From UHGV virus genome UHGV-0319604: a stretch of DNA of 40,338 nt; one strand, written 5' to 3'. The position numbers and the translations under genes are program-made. Positions 430 to 39,983 of the stretch are shown in pieces (within the stretch, counting starts at the first letter, position 1; each line of letters opens with the position of its first letter). Below the pieces are notes generated by a model. That model saw only the letters and a list, made by a program, of their open reading frames with translations. It was not told the DNA's origin and did no database searches. Origin of the DNA: a virus.

Positions 430-1548
430 TTAAATAGCAAGTTTGGTCCATTCCTTCCCGCGATCATCGTTGTATCTGTCAGTGGTTGACTGTGTTTTAT
501 GCCCCAGCAAAATTTTCGTATCGATCCCCTGGGCGCGGTAAAGTCGTTCGGACAATGAGCGCTGTTCGTGAAACGTTGTGGGTGTTTTTCCTGCAGGCGG
601 TACGATACCGGCTGCATCACGTGCCGCGGCAAACTCTTTGGAAACCAAAATCAGATTCACAGGTTTCGCCTTACTGTTCATTTTCCCGTGCAAGAGGTAG
701 GGACTGACAAACCTATCCCTACATTTCCGTATTACATCCTCCAGCGATAAGCCAATGGCTTCACAACGGAGGTTCAGCGGCAATGCAATACGTGCCCCCG
801 TTTTGCTTTGCTCGATGTGCAGATAGCCGTCCTTAATGTCTGAAAATTTCATGTTCGCAATATCCTCCCGGCGCTGACCAGTGACTAACGCAAGCAGCAT
901 CGCTTTATGCGAGTACCGATCCTCGGGTATTTGCGCCAGTATTTTTTTCCATTCGTCCAGAGAGAGGCGCGCACGTGTAACCTTCACCGAGGGTTTTTTT
1001 GTTGCTGCTGGTGGATTCCATCCAGGAGGCACCTCTCCTGCATGTTGTGCTTCAGTGAAAATATCCACCCATACCACCCGGTTACAGAGGGCACTGCTGG
1101 CATGTCCTGCATCCAGATATTCATCCAGTAACACGGCAAAATCCTTTACCTCCAAACTCTTCATTGGCCGGGAACCAAGCCGCCTGGAAAGCAACTCTGC
1201 CATGCGTTTTTTTTCTTTAAAGCGTTTCAGCGATAGCGATCCGGCATCCAGGCTTTGTGTCTGAATCTTCAGATATCGTTCTATCCATGCTTTGAGGCTG
1301 ATCCCGCGCTGTGCTGCTGCTTTTGGAGTATCATCAATTTGGCGCAAATAGTGCTCGGCTTCTGCTGCTGCAATTCTCTGATTTGCCGTTGTGGCTATTT
1401 TTTCCGCTTTCTCTCTGTCTGTTCCCAGGCCGTGGAACTTACCCGTTAAAGGGTTTTTATACTGGTAGTATGTTTTTGCTGTGCGACGATCAAACCGGGC
1501 ATACAGCCCGGAAATTGATACATTATTTTTTCGTGGCCTTGGTGACAT
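430..1548 (-). CDS. int: Phage integrase, tyrosine recombinase family
   Basis: 372-aa ORF; C-terminal catalytic-type motifs HEQRSLSERLY ... LLGH ... DRY (H-x-x-R and terminal Tyr); position at prophage end overlapping excisionase gene. Confidence 0.85.
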   Translation of the reverse strand: MSPRPRKNNVSISGLYARFDRRTAKTYYQYKNPLTGKFHGLGTDREKAEKIATTANQRIAAAEAEHYLRQIDDTPKAAAQRGISLKAWIERYLKIQTQSLDAGSLSLKRFKEKKRMAELLSRRLGSRPMKSLEVKDFAVLLDEYLDAGHASSALCNRVVWVDIFTEAQHAGEVPPGWNPPAATKKPSVKVTRARLSLDEWKKILAQIPEDRYSHKAMLLALVTGQRREDIANMKFSDIKDGYLHIEQSKTGARIALPLNLRCEAIGLSLEDVIRKCRDRFVSPYLLHGKMNSKAKPVNLILVSKEFAAARDAAGIVPPAGKTPTTFHEQRSLSERLYRAQGIDTKILLGHKTQSTTDRYNDDRGKEWTKLAI

Positions 1549-1882: not shown

Positions 1883-2176
1883 TCAATCGGGCGTGTTGAT
1901 AAACTTCCTCACCAGCGCAGACTCCATTCGCCTGATACAGTCGCGTATCCTTGTCATTTGCACTTCGGGAAACTGACTCCGCCCCATCTCTTCCAGTACG
2001 CTGACAAGATGGTGATCCTGGACTTTGGTCGCCAGTACGCGAGCGCATGCACGCAATGATTCTCCGATACGCCGTTTTTCTATGGCTGCAAATGCTCGGC
2101 ACAGCTCCAGAGTTACCAGCGTGTCGGGAAATTCTGCAAATCGGGTATTGGCGATAACTTCCTTTGCTTTGATCAC
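1883..2176 (-). CDS. Hypothetical early protein (97 aa), GTG start overlapping upstream stop (GTGA)
   Basis: ORF in track (1883..2218); likely start is GTG at 2174-2176 overlapping the stop codon of the upstream 626-aa gene, suggesting translational coupling. Confidence 0.4.
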   Translation of the reverse strand: MIKAKEVIANTRFAEFPDTLVTLELCRAFAAIEKRRIGESLRACARVLATKVQDHHLVSVLEEMGRSQFPEVQMTRIRDCIRRMESALVRKFINTPD

Positions 2177-4053
2177 TCTGCAATCTCCTGCTGACTGATA
2201 ACGCTGCTGGCAAGCCACACGGCCATACCCGGTAGATCATCGTACTGATTGCAGTATGCAGGGTTAGCACATAACCCCTGCAGCGCGGCGGCCGTCAGCT
2301 GCTGATGATAGGTAAGGGCGAATGTTGATGGCTCAGGTACGGAAGCAGGGCGCTGTTCTTCTGGTTTGGCTTCGATCTCTGGGGGAGGCAAAACCACAGC
2401 AACAGGTGCCTCTTCAGTTCCTTCCTGCCGATATTGTTCTAAAATGCGCGTGAGATAATCGAATCGTGTTTCAGGGTTGTCGCTCCATTCTTCGAGCGCA
2501 TTCCAGACCAGATATTCAACATCGTCATCATCAATAATTTCTGGGGTCTCGCCATTTTCCAAAGCAAAAATATCAGTCATGATCATCATTGCAATGTGCG
2601 ATGAATCATGGCCTGTATTGGAGATCAGAAGCTCTGCCTCTTCCTCGTTAAAATAGGCAGTTCTCCCTGCCAGGGTATTTTCTACCAGCGCCTTAATTGC
2701 CTCCTCTCGTGCTGACAGCACAGGTTGATCGTCATTTTTGGCAGATGTAAGCGATTCGACTGTGAAGACGCCGCCGCCCAAGTTCTCCACCCGCGGTTGA
2801 TCCCCGGTTTGATTTTCAGGTGCAGGGCTCTGAGCGAATGCCTCTTTGAGTTCTTTGTCGAGTTGCGCAGCTTTGCCAGGGCAAACTGCTGGTGGCAGAG
2901 TTTCGCCCGGTACAGTCGATTCGGTTTCATCATTTTCTTTTTTCTCAGCATTGGTGCGAGGTTTTGGACGGCAGGCCGTATCAATTGTTTTCTGGTCAGG
3001 GTGCGCGTGGTCAGATTCAACCAACTCGCGATTGATGTACTCCCGTAATTTGATCGGATTGAGCCAGATGTCTTCTGGTGCTGACTTGATCAGGGCGATG
3101 ATGGACGCACGCGAATAGTCCAAAATTCCAGGGGTGCCGCGTAGCTGCGCCCACCATGCAGTAAAACGAGGATCCTGTGCGGCTTCCGCCATTGCTTTCG
3201 CTGGAATCATGTATTTATTCGGGATCCAGTAAATGTCGATCTCGTCGTACATACTCAGAATGGCAATAGCCACTTCGATACGCAGCGTAGAGAGGTTATG
3301 AACCAGATCCGGGCTACGGTCTGTCTTGTTGCCACCACCCAGCGTGGAGCCGGTGTCTGTACGGTTTTCTTCTGTGGTTGTGGTAGACTGAGGACGCTTA
3401 TCAACTGGTGTATCGATCCATTTAGCGATCTGCTTTTTGATGTCCGGCCACTGCGCAGATCCTTTGGTGTTCTCACGTAACCAGGAGAGTAATTGCTCCT
3501 GGCGTTCCGGCGCCAACTCAAGCGCGCGGCGCTCTTTTGCAAGTGCTTCTGCAAGCTCGCGGGCAAAGCTGGGTTCATCGTCATTCCTCAAATCGACGAT
3601 CTGGCCATACTGCGCTGAAGTGATTCCAGGGACCGGGCCGAACAGTGCCAGACAAGCTGCGCGGGATGCCTGGTCGAGCTGCGCAACGATTTTAATTTCT
3701 TCCTGAGTCTTGTTGTCCTCCCATTCTTCCTTTGCTTCAGTCTCTGGCTTTGGTGCAGCAGCTGGTTCACCGCGGTTGGTATTCCAGATAACGTGATCAC
3801 CAAAGAAATCAGAGCTAAACACATCAAGCTCAGGGCAGGGGAGATCATCATGGTGTTCCCAGATTTTCACCTTAAAATAATCATCAATATGTTCAGGATG
3901 TTCTGCCGCCAGCTTACCGAAAATAACGGCTTCAGCGATGGCTTTTGTGGCCGCATTAACTGCGGTGGCAAGTGGTTTTAAATCGGGATGTTTTTTTAAT
4001 GCTTTATCTTTTGGGAAGTAAGCACCACCAAATACTTTTAACTCAACAGACAT
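2173..4053 (-). CDS. Large acidic early-left protein, possibly RecE-family (exonuclease VIII-like) N-terminal/middle region without an obvious nuclease domain
   Basis: 626-aa ORF; segment GGGNKTDRSPDLVHNLSTLRIEV...DIYWIP...LDYSRASIIALIKSAP...ESDHAHPDQKTIDTAC resembles my recollection of RecE; gene order (Zn-ribbon small gene, then large gene, then xis/int) parallels the Rac prophage. Family assignment is from memory only. Confidence 0.4.
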   Translation of the reverse strand: MSVELKVFGGAYFPKDKALKKHPDLKPLATAVNAATKAIAEAVIFGKLAAEHPEHIDDYFKVKIWEHHDDLPCPELDVFSSDFFGDHVIWNTNRGEPAAAPKPETEAKEEWEDNKTQEEIKIVAQLDQASRAACLALFGPVPGITSAQYGQIVDLRNDDEPSFARELAEALAKERRALELAPERQEQLLSWLRENTKGSAQWPDIKKQIAKWIDTPVDKRPQSTTTTEENRTDTGSTLGGGNKTDRSPDLVHNLSTLRIEVAIAILSMYDEIDIYWIPNKYMIPAKAMAEAAQDPRFTAWWAQLRGTPGILDYSRASIIALIKSAPEDIWLNPIKLREYINRELVESDHAHPDQKTIDTACRPKPRTNAEKKENDETESTVPGETLPPAVCPGKAAQLDKELKEAFAQSPAPENQTGDQPRVENLGGGVFTVESLTSAKNDDQPVLSAREEAIKALVENTLAGRTAYFNEEEAELLISNTGHDSSHIAMMIMTDIFALENGETPEIIDDDDVEYLVWNALEEWSDNPETRFDYLTRILEQYRQEGTEEAPVAVVLPPPEIEAKPEEQRPASVPEPSTFALTYHQQLTAAALQGLCANPAYCNQYDDLPGMAVWLASSVISQQEIAE

Positions 4054-4891: not shown

Positions 4892-5389
4892 TTATAGCAT
4901 CTGAAATAATTGCCGCTGAGTTAATCTCTTTTCCCATAATCGGAGGGCAGTTGCTTTTGCCCAGCGGTACCATTCGCGGCCAGCTTCTTTGTAAGAATTA
5001 CCGAGTCTAACCAGATCCCAGGTTTCCTGTGAGAAGTCGGGCTTTTTATTTGCGATATGTTGCCGGGCAGCGATCATGCTGTCGATTGCTTCGTTGATCT
5101 CCAGCGCTTCGGTGTGGTGAGATTCAATCATCTGCTCGATGGTCTTGCGGCTGTCGTGTTGATTAGCCCATTCATCCCACTGCTCATCTGCTTTCACTTC
5201 GTCGATCTCTGCGTTGAATTCTAGCGCTTCGGCGTGGTCACGTTCTGCCAGAGCTTTTAAAATTTTGTGCATCGTGTTCTCTGATTTCACTTCACGCAAT
5301 GTGCTGCAGTTATACGCGTTGAAGGTGCCATCTTCGCGTTGTTTCACGCTGTATACCGCTTTGCCGATGTTGATTTTGTGGCTGGTCAT
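4892..5389 (-). CDS. Hypothetical early protein (165 aa) with internal 40-residue duplication; first gene of leftward operon
   Basis: ORF in track; DNA near-repeat cgttgatctccagcgcttcggtgtggt (5092-5118) vs cgttgaattctagcgcttcggcgtggt (5212-5238), 120 bp apart, giving protein repeats HAEALEFNAEIDEV / HTEALEINEAIDSM. Confidence 0.5.
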   Translation of the reverse strand: MTSHKINIGKAVYSVKQREDGTFNAYNCSTLREVKSENTMHKILKALAERDHAEALEFNAEIDEVKADEQWDEWANQHDSRKTIEQMIESHHTEALEINEAIDSMIAARQHIANKKPDFSQETWDLVRLGNSYKEAGREWYRWAKATALRLWEKRLTQRQLFQML

Positions 5390-11002: not shown

Positions 11003-11299
11003 ATGAAGAAAGCAGATAGCCTCCATCTTTCACGTGTGGCCGCGCTGGGCTGCATCGTGTGCAGAAACCAGAACTTGGGCGAGACGCCTGCGGAAATTCA
11101 CCATATCCGAACCGGTCAGGGCACCAGTCAACGTGCTGACCATCGGAAATCAATTCCCCTGTGCCATATGCACCACCGCAACGGCGGTTACGGTGTCGCG
11201 ATTCATGCTGGCCGCCGCGCCTGGGAAATGAAGTACGGCACTGAAGCTGAACTGCTGGTGCAGGTTCTCTATTTGCTGGGAGAGCCTGCCGATGAGTAA
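11003..11299 (+). CDS. Small HNH-motif zinc-binding protein (Ref/DUF1364-like)
   Basis: CIVCRNQ ... EIHHIR ... CHMHH pattern (CxxC, HH, CHxHH) typical of small phage HNH-like proteins. Confidence 0.45.
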   Translation: MKKADSLHLSRVAALGCIVCRNQNLGETPAEIHHIRTGQGTSQRADHRKSIPLCHMHHRNGGYGVAIHAGRRAWEMKYGTEAELLVQVLYLLGEPADE

Positions 11300-12953
11300 G
11301 CCAGTCAGTTACGGCTCAGTGTGCAGCGGCATCGAGGCCGCCAGCGTGGCATGGCATTGTTTGGGCTGGCAGCCAGCATGGTTCGCTGAGATAGAAAAAT
11401 TCCCCTCTGCTGTTCTGGCGTACCGCTGGCCGGACGTAAGCAATCTGGGTGATATGACGCAAATCCCCGCGGCAATCCGTGCCGGAAAAATCGAAGCGCC
11501 TGATGTGCTGGTGGGGGGCACCCCTTGCCAGGCGTTCAGCGTTGCGGGTTTACGTAATGGGCTGGCTGACGAACGCGGCCAGTTAACTTTGGCTTTTGTG
11601 GAGCTGGTTAATGCTATCGATGAACTACGCAGAGAACAGGGAAAAACTCCCGTCATCGTCGTCTGGGAAAACGTCCCCGGCGTATTCAGCAGCAAAGATA
11701 ACGCTTTCGGATGTTTTCTTGCAGGGCTTGCCGGCGAAAGCTGCGCGCTGGAATCACCAGGGAAGCGATGGTCAAACGCTGGTTATGTGCTGGGACCAGA
11801 AAGAGCTATTGCCTGGCGAGTGCTCGACGCTCAATTTTTCGGAGTGGCCCAACGACGCAGACGTGTGTTTGTTGTCGCAACAGCTCGAGGGGATATCGAT
11901 CCCGCAAAAATTCTTTTTGAGTCCGAAGGCCTGCGCCGGAATTCTCCGCCGCGCAGAAGTTCGCGGGAAGAAGTTGCCGGAACTTTTAAGGCTCGCGCTA
12001 ATTCAGGTGGCTGGGGACAAGATGTAGAACTTGCCGCAGGTGGCTATATGCAAGTTGTTGTTGGTAGTCACTGGGATAATCCATTGAACCCACACCCAAC
12101 ACTAAATCAGTCATTCAACACTGGTGGTATCGGTGCGAGTAACCAGGAATTATTCAGTCAGCGCGGAAGCGGGATTGTCGGAACGTATGTAAACACTAGC
12201 CGCACACTTTTGGGAAAACCTAACTGCAGCATGGCTGAAGACTTGGAAACTTTTGCCATACATGGAACCCAGGATCCGGATACTCTTCACGATATGGCAC
12301 ATGCCCTGGGGCGCAATCACGGGCAGAAAAACGCGGTTATTGCATTCAGTTCGAAAGATAGCGGCCATGATGCAGCCAGCGACATATCACCAACGCTTCG
12401 CGCAGGGAATAGCAGCAACAGCAATCAGAACGCTGGCGCACCGCCAGCAATAGCTTACGGCATTCCAGGAAACTGGATAGGCCGCGCTCCGCAAAACGGA
12501 GGAAATGCAGTAGAGCCTATGCATGATGTGTCTCCATGTCTGACCGTTGCGGATTGTCACGGCGTTGCATATGCCTTTAAGGCGGGGCAGGGTGCAAAAG
12601 CTAACGGCATAGGATACGCAGCCGAACAAGCCCCAACACTGACAAGCGCAAATAGCGGGAGCAATCAGGCTCCTGCAATCATGCAAAACATGGCCGTTCG
12701 CCGTCTGACTCCTGTCGAGTGCGAACGTCTGCAGGGCTTCCCAGATAACCACACCCTGATCCCCACACAAAAACGTAAGCAGCTCACCGCTGAAGAATAC
12801 GCCTACCTGCGCCACCACCGGCCAGAACTGACTGCAGAACAGGCTTACCGCCTGGCCGCTGATGGACCGCGCTATAAAGCGATCGGAAACTCAATGGCCG
12901 TACCGGTTATGCGGTGGATTGGTTCCCGCATACAGGAGGCGCTGCGTGCATAA
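11292..12953 (+). CDS. DNA (cytosine-5)-methyltransferase, orphan (no adjacent restriction gene), with long low-complexity target-recognition region
   Basis: C5-MTase motifs: GSVCSGIEAAS (motif I-like), GGTPCQAFSVAG (PCQ motif IV), ENV (motif VI), RRRVFVVA (motif VIII), RLTPVECERLQGFPDNH and AIGNSMAVPV (motifs IX/X). Confidence 0.85.
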   Translation: MSKPVSYGSVCSGIEAASVAWHCLGWQPAWFAEIEKFPSAVLAYRWPDVSNLGDMTQIPAAIRAGKIEAPDVLVGGTPCQAFSVAGLRNGLADERGQLTLAFVELVNAIDELRREQGKTPVIVVWENVPGVFSSKDNAFGCFLAGLAGESCALESPGKRWSNAGYVLGPERAIAWRVLDAQFFGVAQRRRRVFVVATARGDIDPAKILFESEGLRRNSPPRRSSREEVAGTFKARANSGGWGQDVELAAGGYMQVVVGSHWDNPLNPHPTLNQSFNTGGIGASNQELFSQRGSGIVGTYVNTSRTLLGKPNCSMAEDLETFAIHGTQDPDTLHDMAHALGRNHGQKNAVIAFSSKDSGHDAASDISPTLRAGNSSNSNQNAGAPPAIAYGIPGNWIGRAPQNGGNAVEPMHDVSPCLTVADCHGVAYAFKAGQGAKANGIGYAAEQAPTLTSANSGSNQAPAIMQNMAVRRLTPVECERLQGFPDNHTLIPTQKRKQLTAEEYAYLRHHRPELTAEQAYRLAADGPRYKAIGNSMAVPVMRWIGSRIQEALRA

Positions 12954-13302
12954 ATACATCATTACCCCAGTCGGAAAACCCCGCATGACCCGGGCTGATA
13001 AGTGGAAACAGCGCCCGCCGGTGATGCGCTATCGCATGTTCTGCGATGAAGCTAGGCTGCATGGAATCCAGGTGCCGGAGAGCGGCGCCCATATCACTTT
13101 CGTTTTGCCGATGCCGCAGAGCTGGAGCAAGAAAAAACGCGCAGCTATGGACGGCCAGCCACACCAGCAAAAGCCTGATCTGGACAACTTAACAAAATCG
13201 CTACTGGATGCCTTGTTTGAGGATGATTCCCACATTTGGGACGCCCGGACATCAAAAGTATGGGGCGAAACCGGAATGATAATTATCGAGGACATGAAAT
13301 GA
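12946..13302 (+). CDS. RusA-like Holliday junction resolvase
   Basis: GTG start after SD AGGAGG (12934-12939), overlapping the MTase stop; motifs PVGKPRMTRADKW and KPDLDNLTKSLLDALFEDDSHIWD resemble the RusA DLDN region. Confidence 0.55.
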   Translation: MHKYIITPVGKPRMTRADKWKQRPPVMRYRMFCDEARLHGIQVPESGAHITFVLPMPQSWSKKKRAAMDGQPHQQKPDLDNLTKSLLDALFEDDSHIWDARTSKVWGETGMIIIEDMK

Positions 13303-16398: not shown

Positions 16399-16426
16399 GC
16401 CATCTATATTCATAGGTGGCTTTTTT
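16399..16426 (+). terminator. Rho-independent terminator after the AT-rich moron
   Basis: gccatcta-tattca-taggtggc hairpin (one mismatch) followed by tttttt. Confidence 0.5.
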
Positions 16427-16454
16427 ATGCGCAGCACACATCAAAATACACATC

Positions 16455-16994
16455 ATGCAAACAATCATGTGCATCGGTAGCGGCCCGTCGCTGGCACCGA
16501 ATGACTGCTTGCGAGCTAACGATTCAGGTCTGCCAGTTATAGCCGTTAACAACAGTTGGGCTGCAGTGCCAGGCTGTCAGCACATTTATGCAGCAGACTG
16601 CTGCTGGTGGGAAGAATACGGCGCAGGCATAACATCCAACGCTGCCCGGTGGTGTGGTGATGAGTTCACGGCCAGGCGTTTTGGCATTAACTGGCTACCT
16701 TCTGCAATACCCGGTTCGTTTAATTCTGGTCAGCGAGCGATTGAGTTGGCGATCCACCTTGGCGCCAGCCGCGTTCTGTTGCTGGGCTATGACTGCTCAA
16801 TACGAAACGGCACCCACTGGCACGGCAACCACGCTCAGCTGTCCAACCCGGACAAATTCAGCGTAGCGCGCTGGCAGGATGAATTCTCCCGCCTCAGAGT
16901 TATTGCTGGTGGTGTCGAGATAATTAACTGCTCCCGCTTTACGCGGCTTACCTGCTTTCCCCGACAGTCCCTCGAGACTGCACTTTCTCTGTAG
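16455..16994 (+). CDS. Cst-II-like (GT42/DUF115-type) nucleotide-sugar transferase-fold protein
   Basis: N-terminal IMCIGSGPSLAPND resembles the GNGPSL motif at the start of Cst-II-type sialyltransferases; later FNSGQRAIELAIHLGASRVLLLGYDCS resembles the ITSG...IALGYKEIYLSGID segment of that family. Comparison from memory; start codon uncertain (16455 or 16467). Confidence 0.45.
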   Translation: MQTIMCIGSGPSLAPNDCLRANDSGLPVIAVNNSWAAVPGCQHIYAADCCWWEEYGAGITSNAARWCGDEFTARRFGINWLPSAIPGSFNSGQRAIELAIHLGASRVLLLGYDCSIRNGTHWHGNHAQLSNPDKFSVARWQDEFSRLRVIAGGVEIINCSRFTRLTCFPRQSLETALSL

Positions 16995-17001
16995 GAAACT
17001 T

Positions 17002-17868
17002 ATGAAAAGACGAAAGGTCTGCATCCGCGGGATGTATGGGCTTGGTGACTCTATTTACCAGCGGGCGTTTGTACGCCAGTTCCCCGGTGCGTTTCTGCGT
17101 ACACCCTGGCCGGAGCTTTACAGCGATCTCGATGTGAAATTTATTCGCTCTAATACTGCGCTCAGGACTCAGCGAAAAAACGAAGAGCAAACCAACGTGG
17201 AGTTTATTCCGGAACCATCGCGGCCGTCAGAGATACTGACAATTTTTTATGGCCCCGAAGAGCTGAGCAAAGGATCCATCATTGACGCCATGACCTGGCA
17301 ATTTGGCAAGATGGCCAGCGTTTTTGATCTGCCGTCATTCGGTGAATCGCCGGTACAGGTTGATAAGCCGGTTGCAGTAATCCGTCCGGCCACCGTTCGC
17401 AAAGAGTGGGCGAACCCCGCGCGAAATCCTGACCCCAAATACCTCGCGGAAGCCGCACGCGAGCTGCGTAAACATTTTTACGTTGTGAGCCTGGCTGATC
17501 TTGAAGAGGGTGAAGAGTGGCTGGTGGGTGAACTTCCGGAGGCCGATCTCTATCTGCACAAAGGCGAGCTGTCACTAACGGAAATGCTGGCGCTGGTGGA
17601 ACATGCCGCCGTTGTGGTTTCCGGGGTTGGCTGGGCGCTGCCAGCAGCTGTCTGCTACAAAACGCCTGTTTACATCGTTCAGGGTGGATGCGGGGCCCAC
17701 AATGCCCCTCACATCGTCACCGATCCGGAAATGGATCTTTCCCGCGTCGGCTGGGCGCAACCGGATGATTACTGCATGTGCGCGAGCATGGAGCACGACT
17801 GCAGCAAGCACATCACCGGTTTCCTCGATAAATTCAAAGGCTGGCTACATGACATTGTTCTCACATGA
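17002..17868 (+). CDS. Glycosyltransferase family 9-like (heptosyltransferase-like) protein
   Basis: N-terminal VCIRGMYGLGDSIYQRAFVRQF matches the GT9 I-R-x-x-x-LGD signature; C-terminal LSLTEMLALVEHAAVVVSGVGWALPAAVCYKTPVYIV matches the GT9 C-terminal donor-binding segment. Confidence 0.55.
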   Translation: MKRRKVCIRGMYGLGDSIYQRAFVRQFPGAFLRTPWPELYSDLDVKFIRSNTALRTQRKNEEQTNVEFIPEPSRPSEILTIFYGPEELSKGSIIDAMTWQFGKMASVFDLPSFGESPVQVDKPVAVIRPATVRKEWANPARNPDPKYLAEAARELRKHFYVVSLADLEEGEEWLVGELPEADLYLHKGELSLTEMLALVEHAAVVVSGVGWALPAAVCYKTPVYIVQGGCGAHNAPHIVTDPEMDLSRVGWAQPDDYCMCASMEHDCSKHITGFLDKFKGWLHDIVLT

Positions 17869-18499
17869 AATGCAAAACGGCCTTGTATGGCTGCCCGAGC
17901 TGGGCATTGGACGTTTTCCGGTACCACCAGAGCGGCCATACGACGCCAGTTATTTTGCAAAGTATCGGCAGATGGCGCAGACCAACATGGGGATTCAGCT
18001 GAATGCGGCACGTATCCAGCTGGTGGGCCGCCATCATCAGGGCAAAGTGCTCGACGTGGGGATCGGGTCCGGTCAGTTCGTGGAGACACGGCCTGATACA
18101 TGGGGTTATGACGTTAATCCTGAAGGGATCGCCTGGCTAAAAGCTGGTGGCCGCTGGGCTAACCTTTACGACCCTTATTTCCCTGACGATGATTTTCCTG
18201 CGCTGACGTTCTGGGATTCGCTGGAGCACATCGACGATCCAGAAGCAGCTGTTGCGCGTGCTGGTCAGTGGGTTTTTGTGTCTCTGCCTGTCTTCAAAAA
18301 TGCAGAACATATCCTGACGTCCCGGCATTACCGCAAGGACGAGCACATCTGGTATTTCACCGACGAAGGCATCCGGCGCTGGTTTGACGCGCAGGGTTTC
18401 GCCTGTGCTGAACACAACACCATTGAGAGCATGTTGGGGCGGGATGGCATCAGCAGCTATGCATTCCGGAGGGTCAGCAATGCCAGCAAGAACGCCTAA
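17849..18499 (+). CDS. Class I SAM-dependent methyltransferase
   Basis: Motif I-like KVLDVGIGSGQF, followed by YDVNPEG and FWDSLEHIDDP; start ATG 17849 overlaps upstream stop by 20 nt. Confidence 0.6.
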   Translation: MTLFSHEMQNGLVWLPELGIGRFPVPPERPYDASYFAKYRQMAQTNMGIQLNAARIQLVGRHHQGKVLDVGIGSGQFVETRPDTWGYDVNPEGIAWLKAGGRWANLYDPYFPDDDFPALTFWDSLEHIDDPEAAVARAGQWVFVSLPVFKNAEHILTSRHYRKDEHIWYFTDEGIRRWFDAQGFACAEHNTIESMLGRDGISSYAFRRVSNASKNA

Positions 18500-36114: not shown

Positions 36115-37480
36115 TACACCTACGGCACAGGCCGATAAATTTGGACCCGGCAAAAATGGTTTTACGAATGGCGACCCGGCGACCGGCCGCCGCGCTACCG
36201 ACCTGAACAGTGACATGTGGGATGCTGTTCAGGAGGAGATCTGCGCTGTAATTGAAAAGTCAGGGCTGGCCCTGAATAAAGATCAGCACGATCAGCTTTA
36301 TCAGGCGATCGTTAAAATTATCACTTCCAAAATTCCAGATGCTCTCCTGAAAAAAAACAACCTGTCTGACCTGACAGATAAAGTGCTGGCGCGGGCCAAC
36401 CTGCAGTTAAAGACGGCAGCGCAAAAAGATGTCGTCACCTCTAAAACTGACGTGACCGCTGATCGAGTTTTAACTACTGGCTGGATGAGTCTCGGTGGAT
36501 ACGGTACAGATAATATGATTGCGGGCGCTGATGCACTAAAACCGCTGAGAAACGGTTTTTACGGCGTACAGACTGAGCCTACATATGGAAACGCTGCGCT
36601 AATTAGCTTTGGCTATGACTCAGGTTCGCAGGTTCATATTATTGCGAGGCAGGGCGGGCAGGCTCCAGCACTGGGTGTATGTGGCTCCACGCCTCAAGGG
36701 GTGTTTGGTAACTGGGGAAAAATCTATACTGAATTTCAGAAACCCACTGCTGGGGATGTAGGTGCGCTGCCAATTGGGGGCGGAACTTTAAGCGGCGCTT
36801 TAGCTGTTGTTCAAAATGGCGCAGCAATAGCAGTCCAGAGCAGAACAGCATCTCAAGCGGTGTATATGATAGGTAAGGATTATGATGGCGCAAATTGCTG
36901 GTACGTAGGACGTGGAGGGGCTAATTACAGCATTGCACTTTATAACTATAAAGGTACTAACGGATTAAATATTAACGAAGATGGTTCAATAGCTTTAAAT
37001 CTGGCAAACGGGAAACCATTTACCATAAACGGGCAAGTGGTTCCTTCCAATTATACAAATTTTGATTCACGATATGTATTAACGGATGGAGCTACATACG
37101 CAGGATTTGTGAACGGTGATGCAACCCGGCCTTATATGCGCCATCGAGTTAGCAATGCAGTGGTGGAGCTGGCAAAAAAAGGGGATTCGTATACTAAAGC
37201 AGAGAGCGAAAGCCGCTACCAGCCAAAAGGAAATTACACCCCAGCAGGGCAGGCTTACACAAAGACTGAAAGTGATGCACGATATGTGCAAGGAGTACAG
37301 CTTGGCGCTCGGTCACTAAGTGCATCATCTAATGCTTCGGGAGGTAATCTTTATCTTCCTGCTGGTTGTGTAGCTACTGGATACACTTCGCCTGGTTCTT
37401 CTAACGCTAACGATGTGAGGTTTTACTATAAACCCATTCAGCGGAATATTAACGGAACGTGGGTAACAATCTCAGGCTAA
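36101..37480 (+). CDS. Tail fibre protein (conserved N-terminus, variable AT-richer C-terminal receptor-binding part)
   Basis: Start ATG 36101 ([29 protein letters not shown]...); tandem protein repeats [10 protein letters not shown] / [10 protein letters not shown]; GC drops in the 3' half. Confidence 0.75.
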
Positions 37481-37490
37481 AGGAATTATA

Positions 37491-38075
37491 ATGCAAAACA
37501 TTAAGAATTTTAAAGTCGTAAAACCAACACCTAAACAATTGGAACTGTATACTGCAATGGATGGAACAGTCCCTATATTCCTACAATCAGAAGACGGCAG
37601 AGATTGGTTTGAATGTCACGAATTGTTTTCAGATGAAACAGTGAAAATTATGTACGACAGCAACGGGATTATTTGCTCAGTCGTTGATGAACGAGTCCCT
37701 GAGCGAGGAAATATCTATGCGGTGTCGATGTTTTACCCTGAAAATATGAGCGTAGCTGAAGTAGCACTAAGCGATTATCCTGAAGGGGTGAATATTGACG
37801 GATCTTGGATGTATAGTGATGGGAAAATTGTTCCGGTTCCTGTTGACGTGGTTTCGGAAGCAGAAAAAGAGAAAGCGCAGCGATTAAGTGAAGCGGAGGT
37901 AGCGATTGCGCCACTTCAAAGAGCCGTAAAATACGGGATCGCTACTGATGAAGAAAAAAAATCGCTTGAAAAATGGGAAGTATACACTGTCATGCTAAGT
38001 CGTGTTAATGCTTCTCAGGCTCCGGATATTTTGTGGCCTGAGAAGCTAGGGGGAGAGACAGAAACTACAATGTGA
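37491..38075 (+). CDS. Tail fibre assembly protein
   Basis: 194-aa ORF directly after the fibre gene; C-terminal ...EKWEVYTVMLSRVNASQAPDILWP typical of Tfa chaperones. Confidence 0.7.
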   Translation: MQNIKNFKVVKPTPKQLELYTAMDGTVPIFLQSEDGRDWFECHELFSDETVKIMYDSNGIICSVVDERVPERGNIYAVSMFYPENMSVAEVALSDYPEGVNIDGSWMYSDGKIVPVPVDVVSEAEKEKAQRLSEAEVAIAPLQRAVKYGIATDEEKKSLEKWEVYTVMLSRVNASQAPDILWPEKLGGETETTM

Positions 38076-38081
38076 GGGTTC

Positions 38082-39194
38082 TTACCTTTTGGAACAATCC
38101 TCGTTACTATTCAAGCATTCATCAATCAAATCAAGTATAGGACTTACATCTGCATCCATAACGCGACGCTCTTTTAGTCTCACCTGTTTAGCTAATTTAT
38201 AGTTTGGCCCCCACACATCCGCATTATCTGCTGGGGCGACGAGTATTTTGAATGGGTAAACACAGATTAGCCTTTTCTGAAATGCTCTGGATACATGTAC
38301 AAAAGAAGTGTCTGGGGAAATAACTAGAGCGCTTTCTTTTATTATTTGTGCTGCGGAAAAGAATGACGGCGTAGTATTTTTAGTTACATTTTCTGAATCG
38401 GGGATAGATGCAATTTTATGCTGCTCCCCGAGGATGATCATGTGATACGAATTGGCGTGTTTAGCCATATGATTTGTTATGGTTTCAATTTGCGAGGCTG
38501 AAAAAAAGCGCTCGCTGACGCTACCATAAGGGATAAATGACACTATTATTTTATTAGTGGTCTTTTTAATAAATTCCTGTGCCGCATCAGCATCTTTTTT
38601 AGGAATGATAACAGAGTAATCATAATCTGTTACACTGATACCTAACCCTTCAAGCAGGTCGATGTACCGTGTGCTAATATGAGCCAAGGGATTTTTTATT
38701 TTAATGACTTCATCGTATATTCGATATTTGTTTGTAAATCCAATGGTCTTATAAGGCTTGGAGAGTCTAATTAAATTAAATGTATCAACATTAGAGTGAG
38801 TTACCTCATGCGAATCAATGAAAGTAAATGGATTGATTGCATTGAGCGCAGCAAGGAGCGGCTTTTTATTATTTGGTTCATATAAATATAACCCGTGTAA
38901 ATTTTTCCACTCTTTAAATAAAAAATAAGTTCTTTTATCTGCTATTACAGACACCCGGTAATTGTTTCTCACCAGTGTATCAATTACCCCTCCAATAACA
39001 ACAGCATCCCCAATACCTTTAGCGATGAAAGGTATTACCAAATGGTTTGTTCCCGAATCAAGCCTGTCTTTATTGCGGCGGGCGCGAGTAGCAATCTCAC
39101 TTAATAAACTCAATTTGAGCTTTAATTTTGCTCTTTTGAGATAATAATTTTTAGATCTGTTTGCTTTCCTAAGCCATTTGATCACTGTTTTCAC
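38082..39194 (-). CDS. Glycosyltransferase family 9-like (heptosyltransferase-like) protein, AT-rich moron
   Basis: 370-aa ORF; IAKGIGDAVVIGGVIDTL (GT9 N-terminal signature) and ALVISPDTSFVHVSRAFQKRLICVY (GT9 C-terminal segment); clearly lower GC than the phage backbone; opposite strand to tail genes. Confidence 0.55.
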   Translation of the reverse strand: MKTVIKWLRKANRSKNYYLKRAKLKLKLSLLSEIATRARRNKDRLDSGTNHLVIPFIAKGIGDAVVIGGVIDTLVRNNYRVSVIADKRTYFLFKEWKNLHGLYLYEPNNKKPLLAALNAINPFTFIDSHEVTHSNVDTFNLIRLSKPYKTIGFTNKYRIYDEVIKIKNPLAHISTRYIDLLEGLGISVTDYDYSVIIPKKDADAAQEFIKKTTNKIIVSFIPYGSVSERFFSASQIETITNHMAKHANSYHMIILGEQHKIASIPDSENVTKNTTPSFFSAAQIIKESALVISPDTSFVHVSRAFQKRLICVYPFKILVAPADNADVWGPNYKLAKQVRLKERRVMDADVSPILDLIDECLNSNEDCSKR

Positions 39195-39272
39195 CTTATT
39201 CTTTATATAATAATTTATCTTTATGCTAACTGAGCAGCCTCACTATATGCAATAGCGGGCTGCCCTGTGTTG

Positions 39273-39872
39273 TTAATGTTGCAGCCAGCGATCACGCGCT
39301 TGCCGTGCTATGGCGATCATTTTCTGTATCTCTCCGAGAGTGAATTTTTCTGCTTCATCACACGGCATGACCACATAGCCGGAACGGATCACATGTTCTA
39401 GGCACGAATCGGGGTTCATAACCACTTCGCCAGGCATAAGAGGGTGACAGGCCACGGGCAGGCCGTTTTCGAAATAGGTGATTACTGCGTAATTACCCTG
39501 GCGTGATGCTGCTGGGGCTCTCTTTTGCAGTTCGGCTTCCATCTGGTTAAAAGCTTTAATGTAATTGATCTTCCACTGGAGTGCTTTTTTGCCGGTGAAT
39601 CCCATGACGATTAGAGAGAAAGCATCACGGGTCATTTCGAATGCAGGTGCAGAGATTCTAGCTCCGCCGTTAGGATTTTCCCGCTCATAGTGCGTCTCCT
39701 TAAAATTCAGGAGACGCCATTCTGAGTCACACTCTGATATAACAGTTCTGATTTTTTCCATGACATTGTCATGCCGTTTTTGGAAGTAGTTGGCAACAGC
39801 AACAGATGTGGTGATCGCGCGGTTATCGCACACTTTCACTTCGGGGAGCAAGGGAGAGATTGAAGTAGTCAT
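39273..39872 (-). CDS. Rha-family phage regulatory protein
   Basis: N-terminal VCDNRAITTSVAVANYFQKRHDNVMEKIR matches the Rha-domain signature (...T.S..VA..F.KRHDNV...I). Confidence 0.6.
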   Translation of the reverse strand: MTTSISPLLPEVKVCDNRAITTSVAVANYFQKRHDNVMEKIRTVISECDSEWRLLNFKETHYERENPNGGARISAPAFEMTRDAFSLIVMGFTGKKALQWKINYIKAFNQMEAELQKRAPAASRQGNYAVITYFENGLPVACHPLMPGEVVMNPDSCLEHVIRSGYVVMPCDEAEKFTLGEIQKMIAIARQARDRWLQH

Positions 39873-39983
39873 GTAGACCTCAGCTAAGTTTTTTCGAATG
39901 ATGCCTAATGGCGCCGGGAGGTTCGAAACGGCTTAGCAAAACCGCGGACTTATTCCCCTTTCGGGTGTTGTATTAGTCGCCCT

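What the first reader, a model, noticed from the sequence alone, without database searches (positions are those of the whole stretch)
11292..12953. Orphan C5-cytosine methyltransferase with an unusually long low-complexity variable region
All canonical C5-MTase motifs are present, but about 270 aa of Gly/Asn/Ser/Ala-rich sequence lie between motif VIII and motif IX, and no restriction endonuclease gene is nearby. It likely protects phage DNA from host restriction, possibly with multiple or unusual target specificity.
Basis: partly seen in the sequence, partly recalled or inferred. Interest (0 to 1): 0.5.

Follow-up and report, generated by a model that had tools for sequence, protein, structure and literature searches.

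The report
Prophage cytosine methylase with shuffled recognition cassettes
An Enterobacter prophage carries a stand-alone DNA cytosine methylase whose long middle section is built from small, conserved, interchangeable cassettes, so it probably marks several different DNA sequences to hide phage DNA from host restriction enzymes, though this has not been tested.

Summary
The ORF is real: 11292-12953(+), 553 aa, a C5-cytosine DNA methyltransferase (Pfam PF00145, E=5e-38). The identical protein is already in nr from Enterobacter cloacae. It lies in the nin region of a lambdoid prophage and is translationally coupled to an HNH-like gene and RusA. I found no restriction endonuclease in the ORFs I scanned.

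Motif VIII to motif IX spans 283 aa, against 111 in M.HhaI. Two details of the finding are wrong. The region is not low-complexity (entropy 4.05 bits, cores 4.02). Motif I is non-canonical (CSGIEA, Glu in place of the second Gly), a signature of the whole clade.

The region is a mosaic of about seven cassettes. 117 close relatives show about 75 architectures and spacings of 137-366 aa. Shared cassettes are under purifying selection (dN/dS 0.07-0.17). dS jumps along the gene, which indicates recombination. Cassettes m5, m6 and m7 are paralogous copies of the 'PTL' recognition-loop element.

The closest analogues are the multispecific Bacillus phage methylases, with spacings of 191-284 aa. Multispecificity is plausible (about 0.5) but untested. 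The long region is normal for this large clade. Verdict: new member of a known kind, moderate interest.

The parts
11292..12953 (+). Orphan C5-cytosine DNA methyltransferase gene, 553 aa
   Evidence: ORF. PF00145 E=5.2e-38. TIGR00675 above cut-off. phrog_116 E=7.5e-87. Identical to P0001, nr 'DNA cytosine methyltransferase [Enterobacter cloacae]'.
11319..11342 (+). Motif I, non-canonical (VCSGIEAA, residues 10-17), with Glu15 in place of the second Gly of F-x-G-x-G
   Evidence: 241 of 256 family members have Glu here.
11514..11549 (+). Motif IV (GGTPCQAFSVAG, residues 75-86), with catalytic Cys79
   Evidence: Invariant in alignment A3.
11667..11675 (+). Motif VI (ENV, residues 126-128)
11850..11864 (+). 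Motif VIII (QRRRR, residues 187-191)
   Evidence: Q187, R189 and R191 are invariant.
11958..12062 (+). Cassette m1 (residues 223-257). Most relatives have a 16-aa linker here instead.
   Evidence: Profile similarity to cassette n3a is 89.9%.
12063..12179 (+). Cassette m2 (residues 258-296, contains HPTLNQ). Present in most architectures, so possibly a framework element and not a TRD.
   Evidence: dN/dS 0.00-0.08.
12180..12347 (+). Cassettes m3 and m4 (residues 297-352). They usually travel together but are separable in relatives.
   Evidence: P0111 has an insertion between them, and several relatives have m4 without m3. dN/dS 0.06-0.12 where it could be measured.
12348..12458 (+). Cassette m5 (residues 353-389, DISPTLRAG...PPAIAY), a paralogue of m7
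   Evidence: Smith-Waterman z=3.8, reached by 2 of 500 shuffles. hhalign 95.8%, E=7e-9. dN/dS 0.08-0.13.
12459..12569 (+). Cassette m6 (residues 390-426, DVSPCLTVADCHGVA). It has a divergent allele, n6, in relatives.
   Evidence: hhalign m6~n6 97.2% and m6~m7 68.6%. aa identity is 0.86-0.89 even against relatives whose cores are 68-72% identical.
12570..12689 (+). Cassette m7 (residues 427-466, QAPTLTSANSGSNQAPAIM). It is the counterpart of the M.HhaI T250-L251 recognition loop. P0003 carries the alternative cassette n2b here.
   Evidence: Aligned to HhaI 248-272. Cassette replacement seen.
12699..12743 (+). Motif IX (RRLTPVECERLQGFP, residues 470-484)
12885..12908 (+). Motif X (GNSMAVPV, residues 532-539)
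   Evidence: G532 and N533 are invariant.
11003..11299 (+). Upstream HNH-like gene (RecA-dependent-nuclease/DUF968 type, 98 aa). Its stop overlaps the MTase start (ATGAGTAA). It is a context gene, not a restriction partner.
   Evidence: PF16786 E=2.8e-13. Overlap read. Absent upstream of the relatives in L093 and L094.
12946..13302 (+). Downstream RusA resolvase gene. Its GTG start overlaps the MTase stop (GTGCATAA), and AGGAGG lies at 12934-12939.
   Evidence: PF05866. Gene call in L001. Sequence read.

Best explanation
The gene encodes an AdoMet-dependent DNA C5-cytosine methyltransferase with no restriction partner. The prophage probably makes it during lytic growth, as part of the delayed-early nin operon and before packaging, so that progeny DNA is already methylated when it enters the next host.

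One catalytic core does the chemistry: residues 1-222 plus 467-553, with nucleophile Cys79. Target choice lies in the 244-aa insert between the two core halves. That insert is not one domain. It is a string of small cassettes, each roughly 27-40 aa. At least three of them (m5, m6, m7) are paralogous copies of the 'P-T/C-L' recognition-loop element that monospecific enzymes such as M.HhaI carry once.

By analogy with the multispecific Bacillus phage enzymes, each recognition cassette would pair in turn with the shared core and direct methylation of its own target sequence. Recombination between phages adds, removes and swaps cassettes and so re-tunes the set of restriction systems evaded. My estimate is about four active recognition units here (m3+m4, m5, m6, m7).

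Shown: the identity and fold of the core, the orphan context, cassette modularity, purifying selection, recombinational mosaicism, and paralogy of m5, m6 and m7. Inferred: activity, expression timing, one-cassette-one-target, the number of active units, and the anti-restriction role.
For: Enzyme and core:
- PF00145, TIGR00675 and phrog_116 hits.
- The AF2 core has pLDDT above 90, and Foldseek's top hits are M.HhaI and M.HaeIII at E=2e-11.
- The AdoMet-contacting acidic residues of motifs II and III (E33, D54) are conserved.

Orphan status and context:
- No REase was found in the scanned ORFs.
- Synteny is conserved and no REase appears in L001-L004 or L090-L094.
- The gene overlaps both neighbours, with a Shine-Dalgarno sequence before the RusA start.

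Modularity:
- Cores are near-invariant while the VIII-to-IX spacing runs from 137 to 366 aa.
- There are about 75 collinear cassette architectures in 117 relatives. Every one of the six internal cassette boundaries of the query is a natural breakpoint in some relative.

Functional constraint:
- dN/dS of the variable region is 0.07-0.17, against 0.15-0.30 for the N-terminal core.
- Cassette identity exceeds core identity in distant relatives, for example m6 0.89 against core 0.68.

Recombination:
- Against P0007, dS is 0.064 in the N-terminal core, 1.66 in the variable region and 0.19 in the C-terminal core.

Repeated recognition element:
- P[TC]L occurs 4 times against 0.046 expected; 0 of 20,000 shuffles reach 4.
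- m5~m7 by Smith-Waterman z=3.8 and by hhalign 95.8%; m6~m7 68.6%.
- m7 aligns to HhaI T250-L251.

Analogy with Bacillus phage enzymes:
- The real M.SPRI, M.Rho11sI, M.H2I and M.SPBetaI sequences have VIII-to-IX spacings of 220, 284, 284 and 191 aa and carry tandem (S/A/H)-(P/T)-T-(L/I)-(T/S) modules.
- BLASTP of the query against them gives E=9e-21 and 1e-22.
- PMC8936443 states that Bacillus phage MTases carry multiple TRDs in tandem, which give multiple recognition sequences.
- PMC8270828 states that SPbeta MtbP methylates GGCC before packaging to protect the genome in the next infection.
- PMC12707154 describes semi-specific orphan MTases that protect DNA to be exported.
Against: - There is no biochemical or methylome evidence for this protein or for any member of its clade in the literature I could search.
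- Cassette homology to experimentally mapped Bacillus TRDs is weak. Cassette HMMs match only the SPTLT and D-x-HGVA motifs, at 0-10 of 2,000 decoys without multiple-test correction, and m1-m4 match nothing.
- An independent 13-aa scan with Bacillus TRD cores was not significant (168 of 2,000 shuffles).
- m1-m4 show no detectable relationship to m5-m7, so they may be framework or linker and not recognition units.
- AF2 could not model residues 221-447 (pLDDT below 50 in both runs). There is therefore no structural support for discrete DNA-reading modules.
- Silent 'pseudo' TRDs are reported in Bacillus phage enzymes (from my memory: Lange et al., Nature 1991), so cassette number need not equal target number.
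- Motif I lacks the second glycine. The effect on cofactor binding is unknown.
- Expression timing is inferred from synteny only.
Confidence: 0.5

Rival explanations
1. It is a monospecific orphan methylase with an oversized, decorated recognition domain. Only the cassette next to motif IX (m7) reads DNA. The other cassettes are structural padding, silent 'pseudo' TRDs, or platforms for DNA or protein binding that tune affinity or processivity.
For: - Only m7 aligns to a known recognition loop.
- m1-m4 are unrelated to m5-m7.
- Similarity to mapped Bacillus TRDs is not significant in the independent scan.
- Only 22 of 109 diverse family representatives carry two or more strict P[TC]L motifs.
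- AF2 sees no ordered modules.
Against: - Padding would not be expected to show dN/dS of 0.03-0.17, as strong as or stronger than the N-terminal catalytic core, or to be more conserved than the core between distant relatives.
- A single cooperative domain should not tolerate about 75 natural presence/absence combinations of 27-60-aa pieces.
- m5 and m6 are paralogues of m7 and keep the P-T/C-L element.
Confidence: 0.25
2. It is a low-specificity, high-frequency cytosine methylase (a very short or degenerate target). The cassette string acts collectively as a loose DNA clamp. This would be a C5 counterpart of non-specific prophage adenine methylases such as M.EcoGII.
For: - PMC12707154 describes semi-specific orphan MTases on mobile elements and the silent, toxic prophage enzyme M.EcoGII.
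- The variable region is Gly/Asn/Ser/Ala-enriched and AF2 predicts it with low confidence, as expected for flexible DNA-embracing segments.
Against: - Strong conservation of individual cassette sequences and alternative alleles at one position (m6/n6, m7/n2b) look like discrete specificity determinants, not a generic clamp.
- Known frequent C5 methylases such as M.SssI and M.MpeI have ordinary-sized single TRDs (established knowledge; M.MpeI structures are among the PDB hits).
Confidence: 0.12
3. It is an inactive or repurposed C5-MTase homologue. Either it is a decaying prophage gene, or it binds DNA or uses a different cofactor or chemistry because motif I has lost its second glycine.
For: - Motif I is CSGIEA, not F-x-G-x-G.
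- No member of the clade has published activity.
- Decayed copies exist: P0057 lacks motif I through a deletion.
Against: - All catalytic residues (Cys79, Glu126, Arg189, Arg191) and the AdoMet-contacting E33 and D54 are conserved across 126 diverse sequences.
- The whole gene is under purifying selection.
- The Glu is clade-wide (241 of 256), so it is a conserved feature and not decay.
- The clade holds more than 5,000 50%-identity clusters.
Confidence: 0.08

Closest known systems
Multispecific C5-MTases of Bacillus phages (M.SPRI, M.Phi3TI, M.SPBetaI, M.Rho11sI, M.H2I)
   Same: - They are phage-borne and orphan.
- They have one catalytic core with motifs in the usual order.
- Their variable region is long: VIII-to-IX is 191-284 aa, against 283 here.
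- The region is built from short tandem modules, each carrying an (S/A/H)-(P/T)-T-(L/I) element followed by a hydrophobic strand.
- Natural relatives differ by presence or absence of modules.
- The core is recognisably similar (BLASTP E=9e-21 to 1e-22).
- Their function is pre-packaging self-protection (PMC8270828, PMC8936443).
   Different: - Overall identity is only about 24%.
- The cassettes are not demonstrably homologous to the mapped Bacillus TRDs beyond short motifs.
- Motif I has Glu where SPR has Gly.
- The host is a Gram-negative lambdoid prophage.
- Cassette diversity is much larger (about 15 cassette types and about 75 architectures).
- There are no activity data.
M.HhaI and M.HaeIII (monospecific type II C5-MTases with solved structures)
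   Same: - The catalytic fold is the same (Foldseek E=2e-11, about 200 aligned columns).
- Motifs IV, VI, VIII, IX and X match.
- Cassette m7 aligns to the HhaI T250-L251 recognition loop.
   Different: - The variable region is 283 aa against 111 aa.
- There is no partner endonuclease.
- Residues 223-446 have no counterpart in any solved structure.
C-terminal C5 domain of P1/SJ46-type Dmt (Dam plus C5 fusion proteins)
   Same: - It belongs to the same clade. Salmonella phage SJ46 dmt matches residues 3-550 at 52.5% identity, variable region included.
- Many close relatives of the query are fused to PF02086 Dam domains, for example P0042, P0054 and P0068.
   Different: The query is a stand-alone C5 enzyme with no Dam domain. 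The activity of the C5 half of Dmt is, to my knowledge, uncharacterised; only the Dam function is cited (PMC12707154).
M.EcoGII-type promiscuous prophage methylases
   Same: They are orphan, prophage-encoded, presumably silent in the lysogen, and give broad protection of exported DNA (PMC12707154, PMC5778455).
   Different: That enzyme is an N6-adenine enzyme of a different class and is truly non-specific. Here the chemistry is C5-cytosine, and breadth would come from several discrete modules.

Membership tests
DNA (cytosine-5) methyltransferase (Pfam PF00145 / TIGR00675) | Profile score above the curated cut-off | tested here: met
   PF00145 131.7 bits against 22. TIGR00675 126.2 bits against 100.65.
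DNA (cytosine-5) methyltransferase (Pfam PF00145 / TIGR00675) | Motif IV Pro-Cys with the catalytic cysteine, motif VI ENV, motif VIII Q-x-R-x-R, and motifs IX and X in canonical order | tested here: met
   PCQ at 78, ENV at 126, QRRRR at 187, RRLTPVECERLQGFP at 470, GNSMAVPV at 532. These residues are invariant or nearly invariant in 126 sequences.
DNA (cytosine-5) methyltransferase (Pfam PF00145 / TIGR00675) | Motif I F-x-G-x-G AdoMet loop | tested here: not met
   The motif reads C-S-G-I-E-A, with Glu15 at the second Gly. This is clade-wide (241 of 256). Motif II Glu33 and motif III Asp54 are present, so cofactor binding is still likely.
DNA (cytosine-5) methyltransferase (Pfam PF00145 / TIGR00675) | Class I MTase catalytic fold as in M.HhaI | tested here: met
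   The AF2 core has pLDDT above 90. Foldseek's top hits are HhaI and HaeIII, E=2e-11.
DNA (cytosine-5) methyltransferase (Pfam PF00145 / TIGR00675) | Transfers methyl to C5 of cytosine in DNA | not testable with these tools
   This needs expression followed by bisulfite, EM-seq, nanopore or LC-MS.
Orphan (solitary) phage methyltransferase | No cognate restriction endonuclease gene adjacent, and located in a phage genome | tested here: met
   The window is a lambdoid prophage running from integrase to tail genes. Its neighbours are an HNH-like gene, RusA and Q. No REase or defence model hit any scanned ORF. The same holds in nine related loci. Not every small ORF was scanned.
Multispecific phage C5-MTases (SPR / phi3T / rho11s / H2 type) | A single catalytic core with an enlarged variable region between motifs VIII and IX | tested here: met
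   283 aa here, against 220, 284, 284 and 191 aa measured on the real SPR, rho11s, H2 and SPbeta sequences.
Multispecific phage C5-MTases (SPR / phi3T / rho11s / H2 type) | The variable region consists of several contiguous, independently removable TRDs | tested here: inconclusive
   Natural presence/absence of cassettes with intact cores, purifying selection and paralogy of m5, m6 and m7 fit this feature. Independence of function has not been shown, and m1-m4 are of unknown role.
Multispecific phage C5-MTases (SPR / phi3T / rho11s / H2 type) | TRDs homologous to experimentally mapped TRDs | tested here: inconclusive
   Only short SPTLT and D-x-HGVA motif matches were found, at 0-10 of 2,000 decoys. 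The independent window scan gave 168 of 2,000 shuffles.
Multispecific phage C5-MTases (SPR / phi3T / rho11s / H2 type) | Methylates two or more unrelated target sequences | not testable with these tools
   No methylome or biochemical data were found for this clade.

The most novel reading that the evidence does not exclude
A very large clade of phage C5-methylases, spread through Enterobacterales, Vibrio and Pseudomonas and into Beta- and Alphaproteobacteria, would work as plug-and-play multispecific anti-restriction enzymes. One conserved core would carry a recombining string of up to eight or nine small recognition cassettes. The clade has more than 5,000 50%-identity clusters and is marked by a Gly-to-Glu change in motif I. 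If this is right, it forms a natural combinatorial library of minimal (about 30-40 aa) DNA-sequence readers for C5 methylation. Until now such enzymes have been known only from a handful of Bacillus phage enzymes. A less likely extra possibility is that the motif I change reflects altered cofactor use or chemistry.
Probability: 0.4. Interest if true: 0.65.

Novelty: new member of a known kind. Interest (0 to 1): 0.42.

Why it matters
If the cassettes are independent recognition units, this gene and its relatives would show that multispecific self-methylation is not a Bacillus phage curiosity. It would instead be a common strategy by which temperate phages of Gram-negative bacteria, including clinically important Enterobacter, Klebsiella, Salmonella and E. 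coli, escape several restriction systems with a single gene.

That bears on phage host range, phage-therapy design and horizontal gene transfer. The cassettes would also be a ready-made toolbox of very small sequence-reading modules for engineering targeted cytosine methylases.

5mC is poorly detected by PacBio, so such activities would have been missed in most bacterial methylome surveys. If the enzyme turns out to be monospecific, the gene is an ordinary, already-annotated prophage methylase.

Tried and rejected
1. Structure of the variable region. Two AF2 runs were made, with 62 close and then 126 diverse sequences. Both left residues 221-447 at pLDDT below 50, so no structural inference was possible. 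Foldseek matched only the core.
2. Simple tandem-repeat origin. TRF was not run. The repeat finder found one weak 22-nt pair at the DNA level. Pairwise Smith-Waterman found only m5~m7. The region is therefore not a recent tandem array.
3. Transferring specificity from known TRDs. Cassette HMMs against the SPR, rho11s, H2 and SPbeta variable regions, and a BLOSUM window scan with their TL cores, gave marginal or non-significant results. No target sequence can be predicted.
4. Variable region against the PDB. It returned only one chance hit, E=1.9.
5. HNH-MTase as a functional pair or restriction-like system. I rejected this. The apparent fusion P0057 is a deletion that removes motif I. The HNH-like gene is absent upstream of relatives in other phages. 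It matches no PADLOC model.
6. 'Low-complexity' linker. I rejected this on entropy and on dN/dS.
7. dN/dS on the genome-contig loci. I did not attempt it because they are too divergent (38-68% aa identity). Close relatives fetched through the look-up of encoding contigs were used instead.
8. Literature. Eight searches found no characterised member of this clade. The classic Trautner-lab papers (PMC450048, PMC457134, PMC1171429) and the P1 genome paper (PMC523184) are not held. TRD sizes and 'pseudo-TRDs' are therefore cited from memory only.
Full report
**What is there.** A single ORF runs from ATG 11292 to TAA 12953 on the + strand and encodes 553 aa. It scores far above the curated cut-offs of Pfam PF00145 (131.7 bits against 22) and TIGR00675 (126.2 against 100.65), and it matches phrog_116 'DNA methyltransferase' at E=7.5e-87. 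The identical protein is already in nr as 'DNA cytosine methyltransferase [Enterobacter cloacae]' and occurs on 12 contigs with the same neighbours.

**Motifs.** Motifs IV (PCQ, 78), VI (ENV, 126), VIII (QRRRR, 187), IX (RRLTPVECERLQGFP, 470) and X (GNSMAVPV, 532) are canonical. Motif I is not. It reads C-S-G-I-E-A, so the second glycine of F-x-G-x-G is a glutamate. 241 of 256 family members share this, which makes it a clade signature and not decay. The acidic AdoMet contacts of motifs II and III (E33, D54) are conserved. With a diverse alignment, AlphaFold models the two core halves at pLDDT above 90. Foldseek's best matches are M.HhaI and M.HaeIII, at E=2e-11 over about 200 columns.

**Context.** The window is a lambdoid prophage. 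In order it carries:
- an integrase (430-1548, minus strand);
- a repressor, a cII-like gene, and O- and P-like replication genes;
- a nin-type region;
- lysis genes, terminase and structural genes.

The methylase sits between a 98-aa HNH-like gene of the RecA-dependent-nuclease/DUF968 type and RusA, followed by Q. Its start overlaps the upstream stop (ATGAGTAA). Its stop overlaps the RusA GTG start (GTGCATAA), which is preceded by AGGAGG. This fits translational coupling within the delayed-early operon. No ORF I scanned matches a restriction endonuclease or a PADLOC defence model, and the methylase's best PADLOC hit is an orphan-MTase model. Close relatives show the same synteny. More distant ones sit next to RdgC or an MT-A70 methylase. 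None sits next to an endonuclease. An apparent HNH-MTase fusion, P0057, is a deletion that removes motif I, so it is not evidence of a functional pair.

**Checking the observation.** The distance from Q187 (motif VIII) to R470 (motif IX) is 283 aa. The M.HhaI alignment gives 111 aa. 'Low-complexity' is not. Entropy of residues 201-468 is 4.05 bits, against 4.02 for each core, and Gly/Asn/Ser/Ala are only modestly enriched. 'Unusually long' needs qualifying. The clade is very large, with 5,352 50%-identity clusters at E<=1e-30. Among the 110 of the 149 newly returned representatives in which both motifs could be located, the median spacing is 262 aa and 35% reach 283 aa or more. The clade is unusual. 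This member is typical of it.

**Anatomy of the variable region.** Relatives whose cores are almost invariant have spacings from 137 to 366 aa. An iterative cassette catalogue of 117 relatives gave 15 cassette types and about 75 different, nearly always collinear, architectures. Examples:

| Protein | Architecture |
|---|---|
| P0102 | m2-n3b |
| P0084 | m2-n3-m3-m4-m7 |
| P0004 | m2-n3-m3-m4-m5-m6-m7 |
| P0007 | m2-n3a-n3b-m3-m4-m5-m6-n2a-m7 |
| Query | m1-m2-m3-m4-m5-m6-m7 |

Each of the six internal boundaries of the query is a natural insertion, deletion or replacement breakpoint in some relative. There is no DNA-level tandem repeat.

**Are the cassettes functional?** Nei-Gojobori estimates against five relatives gave the following:

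| Region | dN/dS |
|---|---|
| Variable region | 0.07-0.17 |
| N-terminal core | 0.15-0.30 |
| C-terminal core | 0.03-0.11 |

Individual cassettes score 0.03-0.17 wherever dS is not saturated. The exceptions are m1, which scores 0.31-0.33, and the low-identity, effectively non-homologous alignments against P0070 and P0007. Between distant relatives the cassettes are more conserved than the catalytic core, for example m6 at 0.89 identity against the N-terminal core at 0.68 in P0070. Synonymous divergence changes abruptly along the gene. Against P0007, dS is 0.064 in the N-terminal core, 1.66 in the variable region and 0.19 in the C-terminal core. The gene is therefore a recombinational mosaic of old, conserved cassette lineages on a recently shared core.

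**Are the cassettes related to each other and to known recognition elements?**
- The tripeptide P-(T/C)-L occurs four times in the variable region against 0.046 expected; 0 of 20,000 shuffles reach four. 'TL' occurs five times against 0.64 expected.
- The last copy, in m7, aligns to the M.HhaI T250-L251 loop.
- m5 and m7 are significantly similar by Smith-Waterman (z=3.8, reached by 2 of 500 shuffles) and by profile-profile comparison (95.8%, E=7e-9). m6~m7 scores 68.6%. n6 is a divergent allele of m6 (97.2%).
- The element that monospecific enzymes carry once is therefore present in at least three tandem paralogous copies.
- m1-m4 show no such relationship, apart from m1~n3a at 89.9% over 13 columns. 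m2 is present in most architectures and may be framework.
- The variable region alone hits nothing in the PDB. AlphaFold leaves residues 221-447 below pLDDT 50 in both runs.

**Comparison with the known multispecific enzymes.** I retrieved the real M.SPRI, M.Rho11sI, M.H2I and M.SPBetaI genes.
- Their VIII-to-IX spacings are 220, 284, 284 and 191 aa.
- Their variable regions carry tandem modules such as GLSPTITTNKGEGLKIAV, AVSHTLSAS...NAVVEV and EPAFTVNTIDRHGVAV. These have the same pattern as DISPTLRAG...PPAIAY, MAHALGRNHGQKNAVIAF and DVSPCLTVADCHGVAYAF in the query.
- BLASTP of the query against SPR and rho11s gives E=9e-21 and 1e-22, stronger than its PDB hit to HhaI (6e-10 by phmmer, a different method).
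- PMC8936443 summarises that these Bacillus phage enzymes contain multiple TRDs in tandem, which give multiple recognition sequences. PMC8270828 says that SPbeta MtbP methylates GGCC before packaging to protect the genome in the next infection. PMC12707154 describes semi-specific orphan methylases that protect DNA to be exported.
- The cassette-level similarity is weak. Cassette HMMs hit only the SPTLT and D-x-HGVA motifs, at 0-10 of 2,000 decoys without correction, and m1-m4 hit nothing. A non-circular scan with Bacillus TL cores was not significant, at 168 of 2,000 shuffles. The resemblance is therefore one of architecture. It is not demonstrable TRD homology, and no target sequence can be predicted.
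- Every multispecific C5 enzyme named in the literature I could search comes from Bacillus: SPR, phi3T, rho11s, H2, SPbeta, phiBssHII and M.BceSV (PMC8936443, PMC11347163). I found nothing on this Gram-negative clade.

**Verdict.** The 'orphan, anti-restriction, possibly multispecific' interpretation is the best-supported reading, and it now rests on more than length: cassette modularity, purifying selection, mosaic recombination and paralogy of the TL-loop modules. I put about 0.5 on the full mechanism of several independent recognition cassettes sharing one core. The main rival, at about 0.25, is a monospecific enzyme in which most cassettes are silent or structural.

The gene is already annotated and is a typical member of a very large clade, so as a finding it is a new member of a known kind. 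The more interesting point is that this whole Gram-negative phage clade may be a combinatorial multispecific system. That can be tested directly by expressing the gene and running a 5mC methylome.

Noticed in passing
window 11813-11846 (gene nt 522-555); L009 601-634: CRISPR arrays of three E. coli chromosomes (MS1170, MS1266, VTB97074v) contain a 34-nt stretch 100% identical to the conserved core of this methylase gene (around residues 174-185). E. coli has therefore acquired spacers against phages that carry this gene family.
   Followed up: partly
window 11319-11342: Motif I of the whole clade reads CSGIEA, with Glu in place of the second Gly of the F-x-G-x-G AdoMet loop (241 of 256 sequences). 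The consequence for cofactor binding or chemistry is unknown.
   Followed up: partly
window 16416-18499: A three-gene cluster lies between the lysis genes and the small terminase. It comprises an MptE-like/'sialyltransferase' protein (phrog_4603), an unknown 288-aa protein (phrog_6804) and a 216-aa class I SAM methyltransferase (PF13489, phrog_6564). It is a possible moron or second modification module, and its substrate is unknown.
   Followed up: no
window 2173-4053 (-): A 626-aa protein lies between the integrase and the immunity region. It has no Pfam or PADLOC hit. It matches phrog_26058 (unknown function) end to end and phage 'exonuclease' PHROGs in part.
   Followed up: no
window 4892-5389 (-): A 165-aa ORF next to the repressor has no hit in Pfam, PHROGs or PADLOC.
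   Followed up: no
P0057 (Logan contig, relative of window 11003-12953): An apparent HNH-methylase fusion protein is a deletion joining HNH residue 74 to about residue 65 of the methylase. Motif I is removed, so this is a decayed or misassembled copy.
   Followed up: yes
L014, L015, L016 (Trabulsiella guamensis ATCC 49490): One genome carries three separate copies of this methylase family on different contigs, at 53-56% identity to the query. Several resident prophages therefore each bring their own version.
   Followed up: no
window 37000-39900: GC content drops to 0.38-0.43 at the right end. This stretch holds a minus-strand 370-aa glycosyltransferase-9-like gene (38082-39194) and a Rha-family regulator (39273-39872). 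It looks like a laterally acquired moron region.
   Followed up: no
L094 1995-2672 (relative P0070): In one related phage the C5 methylase lies two genes downstream of an MT-A70-type adenine methylase. Many other relatives are fused to a Dam domain (P0042, P0054, P0068). Pairing of C5 and N6 methylation recurs in this clade.
   Followed up: no
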